From positions 1-9,600 of IMG/VR virus record IMGVR_UViG_2609460125_000002: a stretch of DNA of 9,600 nucleotides; one strand, written 5' to 3'. Shown here piece after piece: positions 1-9,600 of the stretch. Each line of letters begins with the position of its first letter. Within the stretch, counting starts at the first letter, position 1. The position numbers and the translations under genes are program-made. The stretch is from a virus. Lineage: Duplodnaviria > Heunggongvirae > Uroviricota > Caudoviricetes. Below the pieces are notes generated by a model, which made no database searches, was not told the origin of the DNA, and saw only the letters and a program-made list of their open reading frames with translations.

Positions 1-274
1 AACATCAATGTCGCGTAAAGGTAACTGTTACGACAACGCTCCGATGGAAAGCTTCTGGGGAACGCTGAAAAATGAGAGCCTGAGCCACTATCGTTTAATA
101 ACCGGGATGAAGCCATCTCAGTAATACGGGAATACATTGAGATTTTCTACAATCGTCAGCGTCGTCACTCTCGTCTGGGGAATATCTCCCCGGCAGCCTT
201 CAGGGAAAAATATCATCAGATGACTGCTTAAAAAAAGAACAAATGGTAGTGTCCGCTATTGCCAGTACACCTCA
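1..274 (+). mobile_element. 3' portion of an IS3-family insertion sequence (OrfB C-terminus plus right terminal region); exact IS not identified; right boundary approximate (269-274)
   Basis: Translation of 2..124 gives TSMSRKGNCYDNAPMESFWGTLKNESLSHYR, the conserved DDE-region signature of IS3-family OrfB. The adjacent integrase reading frame becomes non-integrase sequence at about 270-275. Terminal bases ...CAGTACA / ...CCTCA fit the TG...CA tips of IS3-family ends. Confidence 0.6.
2..231 (+). pseudogene. IS3-family transposase OrfB, C-terminal fragment with a frameshift
   Basis: Frame 2 reads ...GNCYDNAPMESFWGTLKNESLSHYRLITGMKPSQ* (stop 122-124). Frame 1 from 97 reads NNRDEAISVIREYIEIFYNRQRRHSRLGNISPAAFREKYHQMTA* (stop 229-231), the expected continuation of the same domain. 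A single missing base near 95-97 (cgttt-aataacc) joins the two. Confidence 0.6.
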
Positions 275-939
275 TCAAGGTCTGTAACGTTGGAACGGCG
301 AAGGCCTGTCGTGATTGCAAACATGACCACAGGGAAGAAATGAGGAGCAATTTCTGCAAACAGGCGCTTCGATTCCTCCTCTGTAAGCCATCTGATTCGT
401 CCATTCTTAACGCGTGGTGTTGATATTTTGGGCGCCCTGTCAAGCCATCCCCATTCAACAGCCATATTGAGAATAGCGCGAAGTATTGCCAGATGCCGCG
501 TCTTCGTTCCTTTGCTTGCCAGCTTTGGTTTATACTCCGGCACTGGCTTGCCAAGCCGCAAACACCTGTCCCGGCTCATTTCCCAGTTCAGGCGATGGCG
601 GCGGTTTTCCATCCCGTCTACCGCCTCCATTATTTTTTCTGTTGTTATGTCAGAGAGAATGGTTTCTCTGAAGTGCAACATCCAGAACGATATAATGCTC
701 TTGTCATCATCAATGGACTTCTTATCCGATTTCTCACGCAGCCACCGTATGCAGGCTTCCTTGAATAGCTTTTTCGGCGATTCCCCGAGATTTTTTACTC
801 TCCACGCTTCTGCTTTCAGACGATCGTGAAGTTCTTGCGCTTGCCTTTTGTCCGATGTTTCAAGAGAGCGTCTAACTCTTGATCCATCTGGCGCGACGAA
901 ATCGCAGTGCCACGTGCCACCGCGTAGTTTGATTGACAT
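256..939 (-). pseudogene. int: Phage tyrosine integrase, N-terminal fragment (227-aa ORF); catalytic C-terminal domain absent
   Basis: ATG at 939 preceded by AGGAGG (8 nt spacing). Protein has the N-terminal/core-binding region and ends just after a box-I-like motif AITTGLRRSNVTDL; no box II (HxxR...Y) follows. The last ~6 codons and the stop (256-258) appear to be supplied by the IS end. Confidence 0.7.
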
Positions 940-4396: not shown

Positions 4397-5104
4397 TTAT
4401 GCCACCTGTTTTAGTTCGTTAACTCTGATGTTCATTACCTGAACGCATTTAGCCTGCGCCTCCTCGTTGCCAGCCATTAATTGCCAGTCACGCTGATAAC
4501 GCTCGATGAGTTTTTTCTTGTCAGTTTCTGTTGACGCATAATCGCTGAAGTCTTTCAGGATTTGCTCGCAGTCAACCGATGGAGATTTCTGGTTGGTATT
4601 TTCTGGTGATGGTTTGTTATCTGATGCTGGGATTGCCCATCCCGGCAGCGATGGAGGGAGCCAGTAAAATCCTGTTCCATCCTTGAGTTTTGCCCTGTGC
4701 CATCCCTGCTTTTTATCGAGAGATGTTTGTGCGAAACCTTCCTCAAGGTTATACAGATACCGACCGATTCCCCACTGAACGGCAGCGCGCTTCATTGCAC
4801 CGGAACGACCACCTTTGACGGCTTCTACCTGCGTGTTTTCAGCAGCATCCCATTTGGTTACCCATTCGGAATCAATCTTGATTGATATGCCGCATTCAAC
4901 GCCGCCGTTGTTGGGAATATCGCGGTATTCATTGCGCCATCCTGCTTTGCCGCAAACATCGTCCAGGCGTTTCATGATTGCCCTGTTCGTGACATAAGCC
5001 AGCACCATAGCCCACACTTTTCCATCGCGTGTTTTACCGCTTTGCTGTATTCGCCATTCGATATCTTCAGGGCTGAATGGCTCATCGAATTTATTCAAAT
5101 CCAT
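4397..5104 (-). CDS. Rad52/Sak-type single-strand annealing protein (recombinase), 235 aa
   Basis: Motifs GAMKRAAVQWGIGRYLY and GKAGWRNEY resemble the Rad52 annealing-domain signature; sits immediately upstream of ssb (TAAATG junction), a typical phage recombination module. RBS GAGGTG. Confidence 0.65.
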   Translation of the reverse strand: MDLNKFDEPFSPEDIEWRIQQSGKTRDGKVWAMVLAYVTNRAIMKRLDDVCGKAGWRNEYRDIPNNGGVECGISIKIDSEWVTKWDAAENTQVEAVKGGRSGAMKRAAVQWGIGRYLYNLEEGFAQTSLDKKQGWHRAKLKDGTGFYWLPPSLPGWAIPASDNKPSPENTNQKSPSVDCEQILKDFSDYASTETDKKKLIERYQRDWQLMAGNEEAQAKCVQVMNIRVNELKQVA

Positions 5105-5203
5105 AATTCACCTCAGAATGGACATGGCCCAAGGAAATAACGCTGGTTTAATACTTCGACTCTGGACAAATTAAGGCATACCCGCATTCCTTCGCGGTCG
5201 CCA

Positions 5204-5362
5204 TTATGGCGATACCAGAGAGCTTTCTGCGTGTACATGCGTCTCTGTAACTTGCTCTCCTTCACTGTGGTTGCAAGTGACATGCATATCTCCTTCGTTA
5301 CCGATTAATTCTTTCATCTGACGAATGAATTCTTCGTCTGACCAGTTATCTGTAAAACTCAT
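5204..5362 (-). CDS. Small hypothetical protein, 52 aa (MSFTDNWSDEEFIRQMKELIGNEGDMHVTCNHSEGEQVTETHVHAESSLVSP); not in ORF track
   Basis: ATG overlaps the stop of the kil-like gene (ATGA) with AGGAA upstream. Lies between kil and the annealase, where P22 carries arf; no sequence evidence for that identity. Confidence 0.35.
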   Translation of the reverse strand: MSFTDNWSDEEFIRQMKELIGNEGDMHVTCNHSEGEQVTETHVHAESSLVSP

Positions 5363-5511
5363 TTCCTGCGATACCACGGAAGGTTGATAGCTGATTTCAT
5401 CGCTTTATTTGCTTCAAGCCACATTTTTGAATCACCAATAAATCTGGCTATTACTGCTTTGTTCTGTGCAGCACGAAGCATCTGGTGATTGATGGCTATT
5501 TCATTGCGCAT
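5359..5511 (-). CDS. kil: Kil-like host cell-division inhibitor, 50 aa (MRNEIAINHQMLRAAQNKAVIARFIGDSKMWLEANKAMKSAINLPWYRRK); not in ORF track
   Basis: Core VIARFIGDSKMW closely resembles lambda Kil (IATFIGDEKMF, as recalled); position directly downstream of the cIII-like gene as in lambda; GAGG 8 nt upstream of ATG. Confidence 0.5.
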   Translation of the reverse strand: MRNEIAINHQMLRAAQNKAVIARFIGDSKMWLEANKAMKSAINLPWYRRK

Positions 5512-5627
5512 AATAAGACCTCAACTCTTTTCCATCCGTCACGTAATTTACGGGTGATTCGCTCAAGTAAAGATTCATTTAGTTGGAAGGCACCCATGCG
5601 AGCGCCTCCCGCGATTGCGTAAATCAT
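5496..5627 (-). CDS. cIII: CIII-like FtsH protease inhibitor, 43 aa (MIYAIAGGARMGAFQLNESLLERITRKLRDGWKRVEVLLCAMK); not in ORF track
   Basis: Contains ESLLERITRKLRDGWKR, matching the essential central helix of lambda CIII as recalled, and an MxYAIAG N-terminus; AAGGAA RBS 7 nt upstream. Confidence 0.6.
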   Translation of the reverse strand: MIYAIAGGARMGAFQLNESLLERITRKLRDGWKRVEVLLCAMK

Positions 5628-5651
5628 GGGTGGTTCCTTATATTGGTTTTA

Positions 5652-6620
5652 TTAGTAGGTTATTTTTGTTGCGAATACTTCGCCTTTTACGATGGCTGTT
5701 ATGATATTTTTAGCAACATCTTCTGATGCACCAACCTTGATAAGGTCAACAAGTATTTTGTTATTTACTTCTTTCCGGTGAGCTTTATCTTTTGCTCTAC
5801 GCTCTTCTTCGTCCTTGATTCTTTTTTCTTCTGCTATTCTGGCTTGCTCTTTTGCTTCAGCCTCGCGACGGATTCGTTCAGCCTCCTCCTGTGCTTTTCT
5901 GCGTTCTGCTTCAATTGCCGCATGCTTTTCTCTTTCAGCTCGTTCCGCCGCCTCTTTTGCTTCGCGCTGTGCTCGTTGCTCGGCTTCAATGCGTTCACGC
6001 TCTGCTCGTTCCGCAGCGGCCTTAGCTTCTGCTTCTCGCCTTGCTGCTGCTTCAATTTCGGCTTTTGCCTTTGCTTCGGCTTCTGCTCTGACTTTCTCTT
6101 CAGCTTCTCTTTTTAAGCGTTCTTCATGCTCTCGCTTTTCCTGCTCCGCTTTGAGTCTTGCCTCTTCTCTTTGGCGGTCAAATTCGCGATCCATCAAAAT
6201 CGCTATTTCATGGTCAGACTCAATTTGCTTTGCGAGAGCTTCAGCTGCTGCCTTAGCTTCTTCTTCGGCTTTAATCCGCGCCTGCTCCTCCTCATAATCA
6301 GTAAGAGGCTGGCGCGCCTTGGCTTTCAGTTCATCAAGGCGATCACGCACTGTCTTGCGGTTGGCATCAATTAGCTTTGGAATTTCCTTCAGTTCAGCAA
6401 CAAGGTCTTTGCCAAGACCATCGAGATATGTTTTCGTCTGCGCAACTTTATACGCCAGAGAAGCGATCTCCTTTCTGCCCTTTGCCGTTGTGATATCAGG
6501 CACAAAGGACATAACTTCACGTTCAACCTTTTGGAGAATTTCTTCAATCTGGTCGGCAGACTTAAATACAGTCATTGCATTTGCTTTTTCAATAACAACT
6601 AAATCTGTTACTTCACTCAT
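5652..6620 (-). CDS. Hypothetical phage protein, 322 aa: N-terminal domain, ~150-residue E/A/K/R-rich coiled-coil (TolA-like low complexity), short C-terminal domain
   Basis: ATG at 6620 with GGAGG 5 nt upstream, directly after a terminator hairpin; the track start at 6674 reads through that terminator. The underlying DNA is repetitive and produces spurious plus-strand ORFs. Confidence 0.6.
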   Translation of the reverse strand: MSEVTDLVVIEKANAMTVFKSADQIEEILQKVEREVMSFVPDITTAKGRKEIASLAYKVAQTKTYLDGLGKDLVAELKEIPKLIDANRKTVRDRLDELKAKARQPLTDYEEEQARIKAEEEAKAAAEALAKQIESDHEIAILMDREFDRQREEARLKAEQEKREHEERLKREAEEKVRAEAEAKAKAEIEAAARREAEAKAAAERAERERIEAEQRAQREAKEAAERAEREKHAAIEAERRKAQEEAERIRREAEAKEQARIAEEKRIKDEEERRAKDKAHRKEVNNKILVDLIKVGASEDVAKNIITAIVKGEVFATKITY

Positions 6621-6630
6621 ATATCCTCCA

Positions 6631-6662
6631 TCAAAAAAATTGCCCTCACACTGGAGGGCAAA
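6631..6662 (-). terminator. Intrinsic terminator (minus strand): stem TGCCCTC/GAGGGCA, 6-nt loop, followed by U7
   Basis: Plus strand 6633-6660 aaaaaaaTTGCCCTCacactgGAGGGCA; on the minus strand the hairpin precedes UUUUUUU and then the GGAGG RBS of the 322-aa gene. Confidence 0.5.
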
Positions 6663-7271: not shown

Positions 7272-7298
7272 CCAAAAATAAAGGCCGACTATGCGACC
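7272..7298 (-). terminator. Intrinsic terminator (minus strand): 5-bp stem with one G-U pair, loop CAUAGU, followed by UUUAUUUUU
   Basis: Plus strand 7274-7298 aaaaataaaGGCCGactatgCGACC; the loop contains the UAG stop (7289-7291) of the 207-aa gene. Confidence 0.4.
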
Positions 7299-7912
7299 TC
7301 GGAAGGAAGTCCAATCATCTTATTCAAATCTTCTACCCGTAAAGCAGGAAGTGCTGTACTTGCTTTATCTGCTTCTTTTGGTAGCAATTCTTTGCTTTCA
7401 GGCCAAACTTCAATAAGTCGCTTAACTGTTGTGACTGAGTTCAAAGCAGCCCATACATTTGATTCGATATCCTTTTTCTTGGCTTCAAGTTTTTGTTGCA
7501 ATGCGCAGATTTCATCAAACCTTTTTGTTATTTTGTGTTCTGCATCAAACATGCATTTATCTTTGGTTGGAGTAGGGAGAAATATATCTTCGCCATTGCC
7601 GTCTTTCCCATATGAATGCCATCCAACCCTTCTGCCAGATACAGTCAGATAAATTGAAGTAGAACGAAATTCGTATGAGTAAAATGAACATCCCATCTTT
7701 TCAAGTTCTTCACTTATAGCTACCAACTTGGATGATAACTGATCCACTTCCTCAGTTTTCTTTTTACCGCCAAACGCAATAACTCTGGCGTCAAGTGCAA
7801 GCTGGTTCTTTAACTTTGTTACTTCTTCAAGTTCAGTGAAAACCCCAGACTTAATTAAAGCGTTACGAGCGATTTCCTCTTTCATTCTCGTAGTTAAGCG
7901 GATTGATGACAT
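7289..7912 (-). CDS. Hypothetical phage protein, 207 aa, unknown function
   Basis: ATG at 7912 with GAGG 8 nt upstream, after a terminator hairpin; the track start (7927) is a TTG extension. No catalytic motif or strongly hydrophobic segment recognised. Confidence 0.55.
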   Translation of the reverse strand: MSSIRLTTRMKEEIARNALIKSGVFTELEEVTKLKNQLALDARVIAFGGKKKTEEVDQLSSKLVAISEELEKMGCSFYSYEFRSTSIYLTVSGRRVGWHSYGKDGNGEDIFLPTPTKDKCMFDAEHKITKRFDEICALQQKLEAKKKDIESNVWAALNSVTTVKRLIEVWPESKELLPKEADKASTALPALRVEDLNKMIGLPSEVA

Positions 7913-7936
7913 ATTAATTCCTCTCAAATAAGAAAA

Positions 7937-8503: not shown

Positions 8504-8776
8504 TTACCTCGCTGTCAGTTGTTTTGATTTCCGGTAGCCTGCCGCGTAAATGGCTACGTTTGGCAGGCAAATACTTCCACTGCATTCATCTGCCTTCTTG
8601 CAGCGAAGGCTTCCGAGTGATGCTGCTTTATCTGCTCTGACGCAACCAGAGAGCTTTAGCGCAATTTTTCGTGCCAGTCGCTGCTCTTGCATTGCCTGTT
8701 CACGTTGAGCCTGTCTGCGTGCTCTGCGGCGATTTCTGGCGTTATCGTCAGCCAGATATGTAATGACTACTGCCAT
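8504..8776 (-). CDS. N-like transcription antitermination protein, 90 aa, with an arginine-rich motif
   Basis: ATG at 8776 with GGAGGT 4 nt upstream; N-terminal DDNARNRRRARRQAQREQ resembles the arginine-rich boxB-binding motif of lambdoid N proteins; first gene of a terminator-punctuated leftward operon. Confidence 0.45.
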   Translation of the reverse strand: MAVVITYLADDNARNRRRARRQAQREQAMQEQRLARKIALKLSGCVRADKAASLGSLRCKKADECSGSICLPNVAIYAAGYRKSKQLTAR

Positions 8777-8934
8777 GTTGACCTCCGATGATTGACTTTG
8801 GCGGTGACGCGACGGGTGCTTATCTTCCGGTTGCTGTCGTGCAGCTGCACTTCACGTCACCCTGAAGTGGCACACTGAATTTGGCCACCTGAACAGAGGT
8901 GATATGCTCACCTCAGAACAACACAGGTGCTCCA

Positions 8935-9600
<666 letters not shown>

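What the first reader, a model, noticed from the sequence alone, without database searches (positions are those of the whole stretch)
5204..5627. cIII-like, kil-like and a third small gene missed by the ORF track
Three overlapping minus-strand ORFs of 43, 50 and 52 aa, each with its own RBS, fill a gap that has no ORF in the provided track. The first conserves ESLLERITRKLRDGWKR (the CIII core as recalled) and the second conserves IARFIGDSKMW (Kil-like). Order and position match lambda (cIII then kil, upstream of the recombination genes). A functional kil under a derepressed operon would be toxic, which bears on why the operon may be kept silent.
Basis: partly seen in the sequence, partly recalled or inferred. 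Interest (0 to 1): 0.4.

Follow-up and report, generated by a model that had tools for sequence, protein, structure and literature searches.

The report
Known phage cIII and kil genes
The gap holds the well-known small lambdoid-phage genes cIII (protease inhibitor) and kil (cell-division blocker) plus two small conserved genes of unknown function, all already annotated in phage Sf6, so the finding is correct but ordinary.

Summary
The three minus-strand ORFs exist exactly as described: cIII 5496-5627, kil 5359-5511, ORF3 5204-5362.

- **cIII:** it passes Pfam Lambda_CIII (56 bits, cut-off 25.7). It carries the 17-residue lambda core unchanged.
- **kil:** it passes Pfam Lambda_Kil (72.6 bits, cut-off 27.6). 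It keeps the Gly-Asp turn.
- **Match to Sf6:** the block is 98.5% identical in DNA to Shigella phage Sf6. There the same ORFs are annotated as genes 32 (cIII), 31 (kil) and 30. CIII and Kil are 100% identical in protein to the Sf6 products.
- **Why the gap:** it reflects only an ORF length cut-off.

It overlaps ORF3 by 80 nt and is the better-supported gene. Its family always sits 7-10 nt upstream of the phage strand-annealing or first recombination gene.

ORF3 has a conserved N-terminal helix and a variable tail. Its resemblance to P22 Arf is only a short motif and fails the profile tests.

The window is a gtrII-carrying prophage in a genome assembly, with two IS insertions. IS600 splits int. 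IS911 sits between pL/nutL and N. So the "silent operon" remark is plausible.

Verdict: correct, already known, low interest.

The parts
5496..5627 (-). cIII: 43-aa lambda-type CIII, an FtsH protease inhibitor that stabilises CII
   Evidence: Pfam Lambda_CIII 56 bits against a 25.7 cut-off, E=4e-15. phrog_550 E=1.6e-20. 69% identical to lambda CIII and 72% to P22 C3. 100% identical in protein to Sf6 gene 32. AAGGA lies 7 nt before the ATG, and this RBS region is conserved with lambda and P22.
5359..5511 (-). kil: 50-aa lambda-family Kil peptide (HK97/Sf6 subtype), an inhibitor of FtsZ-ring assembly
   Evidence: Pfam Lambda_Kil 72.6 bits against a 27.6 cut-off, E=1.7e-20. phrog_2055 E=1.2e-35. 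57% identical to lambda Kil over 30 aa, including the G-D turn. 100% identical in protein to Sf6 gene 31. Variable sites by codon position 5/3/15.
5204..5362 (-). ORF3: 52-aa acidic protein (pI 4.4), the Sf6 gene 30 / HK97 gp42.1 family. It has a conserved N-terminal helix (MSFTDNWSDEEFIRQMKELIG) and a variable, disordered tail.
   Evidence: phrog_2123 E=1.8e-41. 53 protein clusters. The frame stays open (52-56 aa) in diverged relatives, and a 35-aa version with the same N-terminus and a different tail occurs in phage Kapi1, which has no ORF4. AF2 model: helix 9-20 only, mean pLDDT 63. The start overlaps the kil stop (ATGA).
5113..5283 (-). ORF4 (not in the finding): 56-aa basic helical-hairpin protein, the Sf6 gene 29 / HK97 gp42 family. 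It lies immediately upstream of the strand-annealing gene.
   Evidence: phrog_1723 E=9.4e-36. 41-63% identical relatives in Erwinia and Enterobacter phages and in metagenome/genome contigs share invariant S10, A21, R25, G28, L37, E43, F50, P55, F56. Codon-position variation 10/4/23. AF2 mean pLDDT 88, helices 3-27 and 30-49. AAGGAG lies 6 nt before the ATG, and the stop TGA overlaps the GAGG of the next gene.
4397..5104 (-). Rad52-family single-strand annealing protein, the first gene of the recombination module
   Evidence: Pfam Rad52_Rad22 E=5e-26. Corresponds to Sf6 gene 28.
5652..6620 (-). 322-aa coiled-coil protein (Sf6 gene 33 homologue, often labelled 'TolA'), the gene upstream of cIII
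   Evidence: phrog_1376 and phrog_21365. Sf6 gene 33 is 969 nt. A 322-aa gene is called in the source genome.
6640..6661 (-). Terminator-like hairpin followed by a T-run, upstream of the gene-33 homologue. It sits where Sf6 annotates tL2A.
   Evidence: 8-bp stem, 5 G-C pairs, T7 tail. Sf6 annotates terminator tL2A just upstream of gene 33.
8504..8776 (-). N-type antiterminator gene (HK620 type), the first gene of the early-left operon
   Evidence: phrog_271 E=9e-34. 97.8% identical in DNA to the HK620 N region. Pfam N_peptide in the source-genome gene call.
8863..9600 (+). IS911 (left end and orfA/orfB, running off the window), inserted 86 nt upstream of the N start codon and 22 nt promoter-distal of nutL
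   Evidence: 98% identical to annotated IS911 copies. Sequence read directly. Phage homology stops at 8862. pL, OL1-3 and nutL, identical to the HK620 annotated sites, lie on the far side of the IS in the source genome.
1..280 (+). Right end of IS600, inserted into the phage integrase gene. The end point is approximate.
   Evidence: 98% identical to annotated IS600 copies over positions 1-286. Phage homology starts at 275. In the source genome int is split into a 227-aa part and a 97-174-aa Phage_integrase part either side of the IS.

Best explanation
Positions 5113-5627 (minus strand) hold the small-gene cluster of a lambdoid early-left (pL) operon: cIII, kil and two further small genes. It sits between a coiled-coil gene and the recombination module.

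Shown here:
- cIII is a lambda-type CIII and kil is a lambda-family Kil. Both are identical in protein to those of the viable phage Sf6.
- ORF4 is a real, conserved gene placed directly in front of the strand-annealing gene.
- ORF3 has a conserved N-terminal segment that starts at the kil stop codon.
- The window is part of a gtrII-carrying prophage in a sequenced genome, probably Shigella flexneri. IS600 splits int, and IS911 separates pL/nutL from N.

Inferred from work on lambda:
- After infection or induction, CIII forms an amphipathic helix that competitively inhibits the host FtsH protease. This stabilises CII and favours lysogeny.
[quoted passage not shown] The result is filamentation and, if expression is sustained, death.
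- Both need N-mediated antitermination from pL.
- In this prophage the CI repressor and the IS911 insertion should keep cIII and kil essentially unexpressed.

The functions of ORF3 and ORF4 are unknown. The most likely guess is an accessory role with the recombination module, as for P22 Arf.
For: - Family assignment: Pfam Lambda_CIII and Lambda_Kil both score above their gathering thresholds, with matching PHROGs and direct alignments to lambda and P22 proteins.
- CIII essentials: lambda residues 14-37 are essential and sufficient, and S17A, R24A, L26A, R27A and R32A each give a cIII- phenotype (PMC1838920). All five residues lie in the 17-residue block that is identical here.
- Kil essentials: residues 4-38 are modelled as a helix-turn-helix with a G19-D20 turn, and deleting either helix or the turn abolishes activity (PMC11762379). 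The G-D pair is conserved here.
- Kil phenotype: lambda kil expressed from a resident phage or a plasmid causes filamentation through ZipA-dependent FtsZ inhibition (PMC3961180).
- Prior annotation: the block is 98.5% identical in DNA to Sf6, where genes 29-32 are annotated, including kil and cIII. The same annotation appears in Sf101, CUS-3, mEp213 and HK97.
- No decay: all 7 nucleotide differences from Sf6 within cIII, kil and ORF4 are synonymous.
- Coding signal: third-codon-position bias in kil and ORF4.
- Gene order matches lambda and P22.
- Context: the window is 100% identical to NCBI GCA_000754175.1 scaffold KN150717.1. Beyond it lie cI and IS911 on one side, and IS600, the int remainder and gtrA/gtrB/gtrII on the other. 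pL, OL and nutL are intact beyond IS911. Four terminator-like hairpins lie between N and cIII.
Against: - No activity of these particular proteins has been measured. To my knowledge the HK97/Sf6 subtype of Kil (phrog_2055) has not been tested experimentally; the tested homologue, HK629 Kil, is lambda-like.
- This CIII is 43 aa against 54 aa in lambda. The last five residues of the essential region differ (VEVLL against LIDIL).
- Silence of the operon is inferred from structure, not measured. Read-through across IS911, or promoters that the simple scan missed, could allow some expression. That scan found only two weak sigma-70-like sites.
- The P22 'Kil' is a different, non-homologous family, so 'kil' names are not uniform across phages.
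Confidence: 0.9

Rival explanations
1. The ORFs are decaying remnants in a dead prophage. They can still be recognised by sequence but no longer encode functional products.
For: The prophage is defective: int is split by IS600 and IS911 lies between nutL and N. Many database relatives of ORF3/ORF4 carry frameshifts into either alternative frame.
Against: CIII, Kil and ORF4 are 100% identical in protein to those of the viable phage Sf6. All 7 nucleotide differences within them are synonymous. Starts, stops and ribosome-binding sites are intact.
Confidence: 0.05
2. ORF3 is not a real gene. Only ORF4 is translated. The conserved sequence between kil and ORF4 would then be a leader or translation-control region for ORF4.
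For: In the 80-nt overlap, variation follows the ORF4 frame (4/1/7 by codon position) and runs against the ORF3 frame (7/4/1). ORF3 lacks a properly spaced Shine-Dalgarno. The ORF3 model is mostly disordered. Gene callers on the same DNA pick either ORF3 or ORF4, never both.
Against: The ORF3 frame stays open at 52-56 aa in all variants, including an Enterobacter phage whose ORF3 product is only 35% identical. By my own count on the alignment, differences from that phage in the non-overlapping 26 codons fall 5/5/12 by codon position. A 35-aa protein with the same N-terminus and a different tail exists in Kapi1-type phages that have no ORF4. The ATGA overlap with kil is conserved.
Confidence: 0.25
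3. ORF3 is a divergent homologue of P22 Arf, the accessory recombination function that stimulates Erf-mediated recombination.
For: Both are small acidic proteins encoded between kil and the strand-annealing gene. They share an N-terminal (W/F)SDEEFI motif at the same position. One public source names a member of the ORF3 family 'accessory recombination function protein' (P0016).
Against: Pfam Phage_Arf (PF17585) scores P22 Arf at 121 bits but gives no hit for ORF3 at E<=1. The profile-profile comparison gives only 12.7% probability over 16 columns. The gene directly abutting the annealing gene, which is Arf's position in P22, is ORF4, not ORF3.
Confidence: 0.15

Closest known systems
Shigella phage Sf6 genes 29-32 (AF547987)
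   Same: The DNA is 98.5% identical across the whole block, with the same four overlapping ORFs. The CIII, Kil and gene-29 proteins are identical. Gene 30 differs by one residue (M26I). The flanking genes are also the same: the gene 33 homologue upstream and the Rad52-type gene 28 downstream.
   Different: Here the block sits in a chromosomal prophage with int split by IS600 and with IS911 between nutL and N. The N allele is HK620-like, not Sf6-like.
Phage lambda cIII and kil
   Same: Same families by HMM. Same order and overlapping arrangement in the pL operon, upstream of the recombination genes. The 17-residue CIII core is identical and the Kil G-D turn is conserved.
   Different: CIII is 43 aa against 54, with a different C-terminus. 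Kil is 50 aa against 47 and 57% identical over the core. Lambda has gam directly after kil, where this phage has ORF3 and ORF4 followed by a Rad52-type annealing protein.
Phage P22 c3-kil-arf-erf
   Same: Same operon layout: a small cIII-type gene, a 'kil', and a small accessory gene directly before the annealing protein. C3 is 72% identical to this CIII.
   Different: P22 Kil is not homologous to this Kil. Arf is not detectably homologous to ORF4 and shares only a 7-residue motif with ORF3.
Phage HK97 gp42 / gp42.1, gp43 (Kil), gp44 (CIII)
   Same: Same kil subtype and the same ORF3/ORF4 sequences.
   Different: HK97 has the HK022-type CIII rather than the lambda type. Two single-base insertions fuse the ORF3 N-terminus to the ORF4 C-terminus, giving one 83-aa protein.

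Membership tests
Lambda CIII (Pfam PF02061) | Sequence matches the family profile above the curated threshold | tested here: met
   56 bits against a 25.7 gathering score, E=4e-15, covering profile positions 1-33 of 42. phrog_550 E=1.6e-20.
Lambda CIII (Pfam PF02061) | The essential amphipathic region (lambda residues 14-37) is present, with the residues whose alanine substitution gives a cIII- phenotype (S17, R24, L26, R27, R32) | tested here: met
   ESLLERITRKLRDGWKR is identical to lambda residues 16-32 and contains all five residues (PMC1838920). The last five residues of the region differ (VEVLL against LIDIL).
Lambda CIII (Pfam PF02061) | Located in the N-dependent early-left operon, upstream of and overlapping kil | tested here: met
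   Order N ... cIII - kil - recombination genes, with a 16-nt cIII/kil overlap.
Lambda CIII (Pfam PF02061) | Inhibits FtsH and stabilises CII | not testable with these tools
   This needs complementation or in-vitro proteolysis assays.
Lambda Kil (Pfam PF06301) | Sequence matches the family profile above the curated threshold | tested here: met
   72.6 bits against a 27.6 gathering score, E=1.7e-20, covering the full profile 1-31. phrog_2055 E=1.2e-35.
Lambda Kil (Pfam PF06301) | Helix-turn-helix core with a Gly-Asp turn | tested here: inconclusive
   The G-D pair and flanking residues (FIGD.KM) are conserved in the alignment to lambda Kil (PMC11762379). The fold of this peptide was not modelled here.
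Lambda Kil (Pfam PF06301) | ZipA-dependent block of FtsZ-ring assembly, causing filamentation | not testable with these tools
   This needs expression and microscopy.
P22 Arf (Pfam PF17585), considered for ORF3 | Sequence matches the family profile | tested here: not met
   No Phage_Arf hit for ORF3 at E<=1, whereas P22 Arf scores 121 bits. hhalign gives 12.7% probability over 16 columns.
P22 Arf (Pfam PF17585), considered for ORF3 | Small gene directly abutting the 5' end of the strand-annealing gene | tested here: not met
   ORF4, not ORF3, abuts the Rad52-type gene.
Sf6 gene 30 / HK97 gp42.1 family (phrog_2123), for ORF3 | Full-length profile match | tested here: met
   E=1.8e-41 over profile positions 1-52 of 52. 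98% identical to the Sf6 protein.
Sf6 gene 29 / HK97 gp42 family (phrog_1723), for ORF4 | Full-length profile match, and a position immediately upstream of the recombination gene | tested here: met
   E=9.4e-36. 100% identical to the Sf6 protein. It lies 7-10 nt upstream of an Erf, Rad52, ATPase or HNH gene in every context examined with a downstream gene on the contig.

The most novel reading that the evidence does not exclude
ORF4, perhaps together with ORF3, is an unrecognised accessory component of lambdoid recombination modules.

The 56-aa helical hairpin ends in an invariant Pro-Phe. It is translationally linked to whichever strand-annealing or recombination gene follows it (Rad52-type, Erf, ATPase-type, or HNH plus Erf). 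It keeps that position even where kil and ORF3 are absent.

It may act as a functional analogue of P22 Arf. One speculative route is binding the annealing protein, or host SSB partners, through its C-terminal PF tip.
Probability: 0.25. Interest if true: 0.4.

Novelty: already known. Interest (0 to 1): 0.12.

Why it matters
The identification matters mainly for annotation quality. ORF tracks with a 60-aa cut-off miss four real genes here, two of which (cIII, kil) are harmful to the host when expressed.

It also documents an intact kil/cIII pair kept in an IS-disrupted serotype-converting prophage. Intact toxic genes cut off from their promoter fit the known pattern of how defective prophages are tolerated.

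The only open biology is the function of the ORF3/ORF4 pair. Its constant position in front of diverse recombinases suggests a testable accessory role in phage recombination, which could be relevant to recombineering systems.

Tried and rejected
- **Rfam:** a scan of the whole window at E<=1 found nothing, so no known RNA element accounts for the region.
- **IMG/VR loci:** 80 loci fetched with ORF4 all encoded identical ORF4 proteins and added little diversity. I used GenBank phages and encoding contigs instead.
- **Source genome:** an exact search for the IS911/N-leader junction in the species-representative genome collection found nothing. The source was then found through the truncated integrase.
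- **Arf homology of ORF3:** the Pfam profile gave no hit and hhalign was weak. I rejected it as a membership claim and kept it as a weak lead.
- **Arf against ORF4:** no alignment.
- **Fold search:** Foldseek of the confident ORF4 model against the PDB gave only generic helical hairpins at E>=3, which is uninformative.
- **Selected ORF3-ORF4 fusion or programmed frameshift:** HK97 gp42 and several 81-83-aa database proteins suggested this. I found nine distinct fusion junctions into the ORF4 frame. Frameshifts into the third frame are about as common (six or seven clusters). That pattern looks like random indels or assembly errors.
- **NCBIfam:** no model matches any of the four small proteins.
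- **SfII phage genome:** it shares gtrII with this prophage but has a different early-left region with no cIII or kil, so it is not the direct reference for this block.

Full report
**Observation**

The minus strand of 5204-5627 carries the three ORFs as described:
- 5496-5627, 43 aa
- 5359-5511, 50 aa
- 5204-5362, 52 aa from the internal ATG of a 57-aa GTG ORF

cIII and kil overlap by 16 nt. kil and ORF3 overlap by 4 nt (ATGA). With a 60-aa threshold nothing is listed on the minus strand between 5105 and 5651, so the "gap" is a length cut-off artefact. Short ORFs are frequent here by chance (26 of at least 30 aa in 1.7 kb), so the case rests on homology.

**Identity of cIII and kil**

- *cIII scores.* The 43-aa product scores 56 bits on Pfam Lambda_CIII (gathering score 25.7, E=4e-15).
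- *kil scores.* The 50-aa product scores 72.6 bits on Lambda_Kil (gathering score 27.6, E=1.7e-20). PHROGs agree: phrog_550 'CIII' and phrog_2055 'Kil'.
- *CIII alignments.* CIII is 69% identical to lambda CIII, with ESLLERITRKLRDGWKR unchanged. It is 72% identical to P22 C3.
- *CIII functional residues.* Kobiler et al. (PMC1838920) report that lambda residues 14-37 are essential and sufficient. They also report that S17A, R24A, L26A, R27A and R32A each give a cIII- phenotype. All five residues lie in the identical block.
- *Kil alignment.* Kil is 57% identical to lambda Kil over 30 residues, including FIGD.KM.
- *Kil functional core.* Naha et al. (PMC11762379) model residues 4-38 as a helix-turn-helix with a G19-D20 turn. 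Deleting either helix or the turn abolishes activity.
- *Kil phenotype.* Haeusser et al. (PMC3961180) showed ZipA-dependent inhibition of FtsZ assembly and filamentation.
- *Caveat on names.* P22 'Kil' belongs to a different, unrelated family.

**Already annotated**

The 651-nt block is 98.5% identical to Shigella phage Sf6. Casjens' Sf6 annotation lists:
- gene 32: 'similar to lambda cIII protein'
- gene 31: 'similar to lambda kil'
- gene 30: HK97 gp42.1-like
- gene 29: HK97 gp42-like

Sf101, CUS-3, mEp213, HK97 and many others carry the same annotation. CIII, Kil and the gene-29 product are identical in protein to Sf6. All 7 nucleotide differences within them are synonymous. ORF3 differs by M26I. 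The gene order cIII - kil - small gene(s) - strand-annealing gene matches lambda and P22.

**The third ORF and a fourth one**

It overlaps ORF3 by 80 nt in the +1 frame and has the best Shine-Dalgarno of the cluster (AAGGAG, 6 nt).

ORF4 is clearly a gene:
- Relatives at 41-63% identity occur in Erwinia and Enterobacter phages and in metagenome and genome contigs. They keep invariant S10, A21, R25, G28, L37, E43, F50, P55 and F56.
- Variable sites fall 10/4/23 by codon position.
- AlphaFold gives a confident helical hairpin (mean pLDDT 88).
- Foldseek finds no informative PDB match.
- The family is small: 16 cluster representatives at E<=0.001 among 1.84 billion.
- In every context I examined where the contig includes a downstream gene, it lies 7-10 nt upstream of the first recombination gene. 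That gene may be Rad52-type, Erf, an ATPase, or HNH followed by Erf, whatever lies upstream of ORF4.
- Its stop codon overlaps the GAGG of the next gene.

ORF3 is weaker but probably real:
- Its first 21-26 residues are conserved.
- The frame stays open (52-56 aa) in an Enterobacter phage whose ORF3 product is only 35% identical.
- By my count on the alignment, differences from that phage in the non-overlapping codons fall 5/5/12 by codon position.
- A 35-aa version with the same N-terminus and a different acidic tail exists in Kapi1-type phages without ORF4.
- Within the overlap, variation follows the ORF4 frame (4/1/7) and not the ORF3 frame (7/4/1).
- The ORF3 model is one helix (residues 9-20) plus disorder.

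So the ORF3 tail looks unconstrained. ORF3 has no well-spaced Shine-Dalgarno and is probably coupled to kil through the ATGA overlap.

**Arf**

P22 has arf between kil and erf. ORF3 shares (W/F)SDEEFI with the Arf N-terminus. One public source names an ORF3 relative 'accessory recombination function protein'. Against this, Pfam Phage_Arf does not hit ORF3, and the profile-profile comparison gives only 12.7% probability. I therefore do not file ORF3 under Arf. The molecular function of Arf is itself unknown (PMC12315714).

**Context**

- *Source.* The window is 100% identical to NCBI assembly GCA_000754175.1, scaffold KN150717.1.
- *Left end.* Positions 1 to about 280 are the end of IS600, inserted in int.
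- *Right end.* Positions 8863-9600 are IS911. It is inserted 86 nt upstream of the N start codon and 22 nt beyond nutL.
- *Beyond IS911.* In the source genome, OL1-3, pL and nutL lie on the far side of the IS and are identical to the HK620 annotated sites. They are followed by a 122-aa ORF and a 238-aa CI-type repressor gene (HTH_3 plus Peptidase_S24).
- *Beyond IS600.* The rest of int is followed by gtrA, gtrB and a glucosyltransferase 99.8% identical to SfII GtrII. This points to a Shigella flexneri serotype-2 converting prophage; the organism is my inference.
- *IS911-free copy.* A copy of the same prophage without IS911 exists in another sample (L098).
- *Terminators.* Four terminator-like hairpins lie between N and cIII.

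By analogy with lambda, cIII and kil need N-dependent read-through. Repressor control together with the IS911 insertion therefore makes expression unlikely. It does not show that kil toxicity selected for the insertion.

**Verdict**

The observation and interpretation are correct. The feature is already known and annotated in reference phages, so interest is low. The only open point is the function of the ORF3/ORF4 pair next to the recombinase gene.

Noticed in passing
window 8863-9600 (+): IS911 is inserted between nutL and the N gene, 86 nt upstream of the N start codon. pL, OL1-3, nutL and the cI repressor gene survive on the far side in the source genome. An otherwise 99.99% identical prophage without the IS exists in another sample.
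   Followed up: yes
window 1-280 (+) and 256-939 (-): IS600 splits the phage integrase gene. The 227-aa int ORF runs into the IS, and the catalytic-domain fragment lies beyond it. That fragment is followed by gtrA, gtrB and gtrII, which are serotype-conversion genes.
   Followed up: partly
window 5113-5283 (-): A fourth small gene (56 aa, Sf6 gene 29 family) overlaps ORF3 by 80 nt. It is conserved at 41-63% identity in distant phages and always lies directly upstream of the recombination gene. It has an invariant C-terminal Pro-Phe, and its stop codon overlaps the next gene's Shine-Dalgarno.
   Followed up: yes
L086 (HK97) 605-856; proteins P0007, P0014, P0017, P0023, P0030, P0037, P0046, P0049: In HK97, two single-base insertions fuse the ORF3 N-terminus to the ORF4 C-terminus (83-aa gp42). 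Many database variants carry frameshifts at different points of the overlap. They shift into the ORF4 frame or the third frame about equally often.
   Followed up: partly
window 5496-5520 (-): A mosaic junction lies inside the 3' end of cIII. Similarity to lambda and P22 cIII ends right after the GWKR codons. The last residues (LCAMK*) are encoded by the start region of the HK97-type kil module.
   Followed up: partly
window 5585-5610 (-): An 11-bp hairpin lies within cIII codons 6-15 (whole-segment fold z-score -2.1). It recalls the mRNA structures known to control lambda cIII translation.
   Followed up: no
L088 855-1004; L102 2855-3004: In the Erwinia phage EhrS59 and in related contigs, a 49-aa protein ends exactly at the ORF4 start. 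Its C-terminal motif DFDF(I/F)RALYEM aligns with the ORF3 N-terminal SDEEFIRQMKEL and with P22 Arf SDEEFIALISPE.
   Followed up: partly
window 7289-7927 (-): A 207-212-aa Nmad5-family (putative nucleotide-modification) protein is encoded between ral and the gene-33 homologue in the early-left operon.
   Followed up: no
L096 vs L097, gene calls at 5578-5736 / 5657-5827: Gene callers applied to the same DNA report either ORF3 or ORF4 but never both. One of the two is therefore systematically missing from annotations.
   Followed up: no
L109 (phage SfII KC736978) 24500-36000: The sequenced SfII phage shares gtrII with this prophage. Its early-left region is entirely different and has no cIII, kil or recombination module. 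The gtrII cassette therefore rides on different phage backbones.
   Followed up: partly
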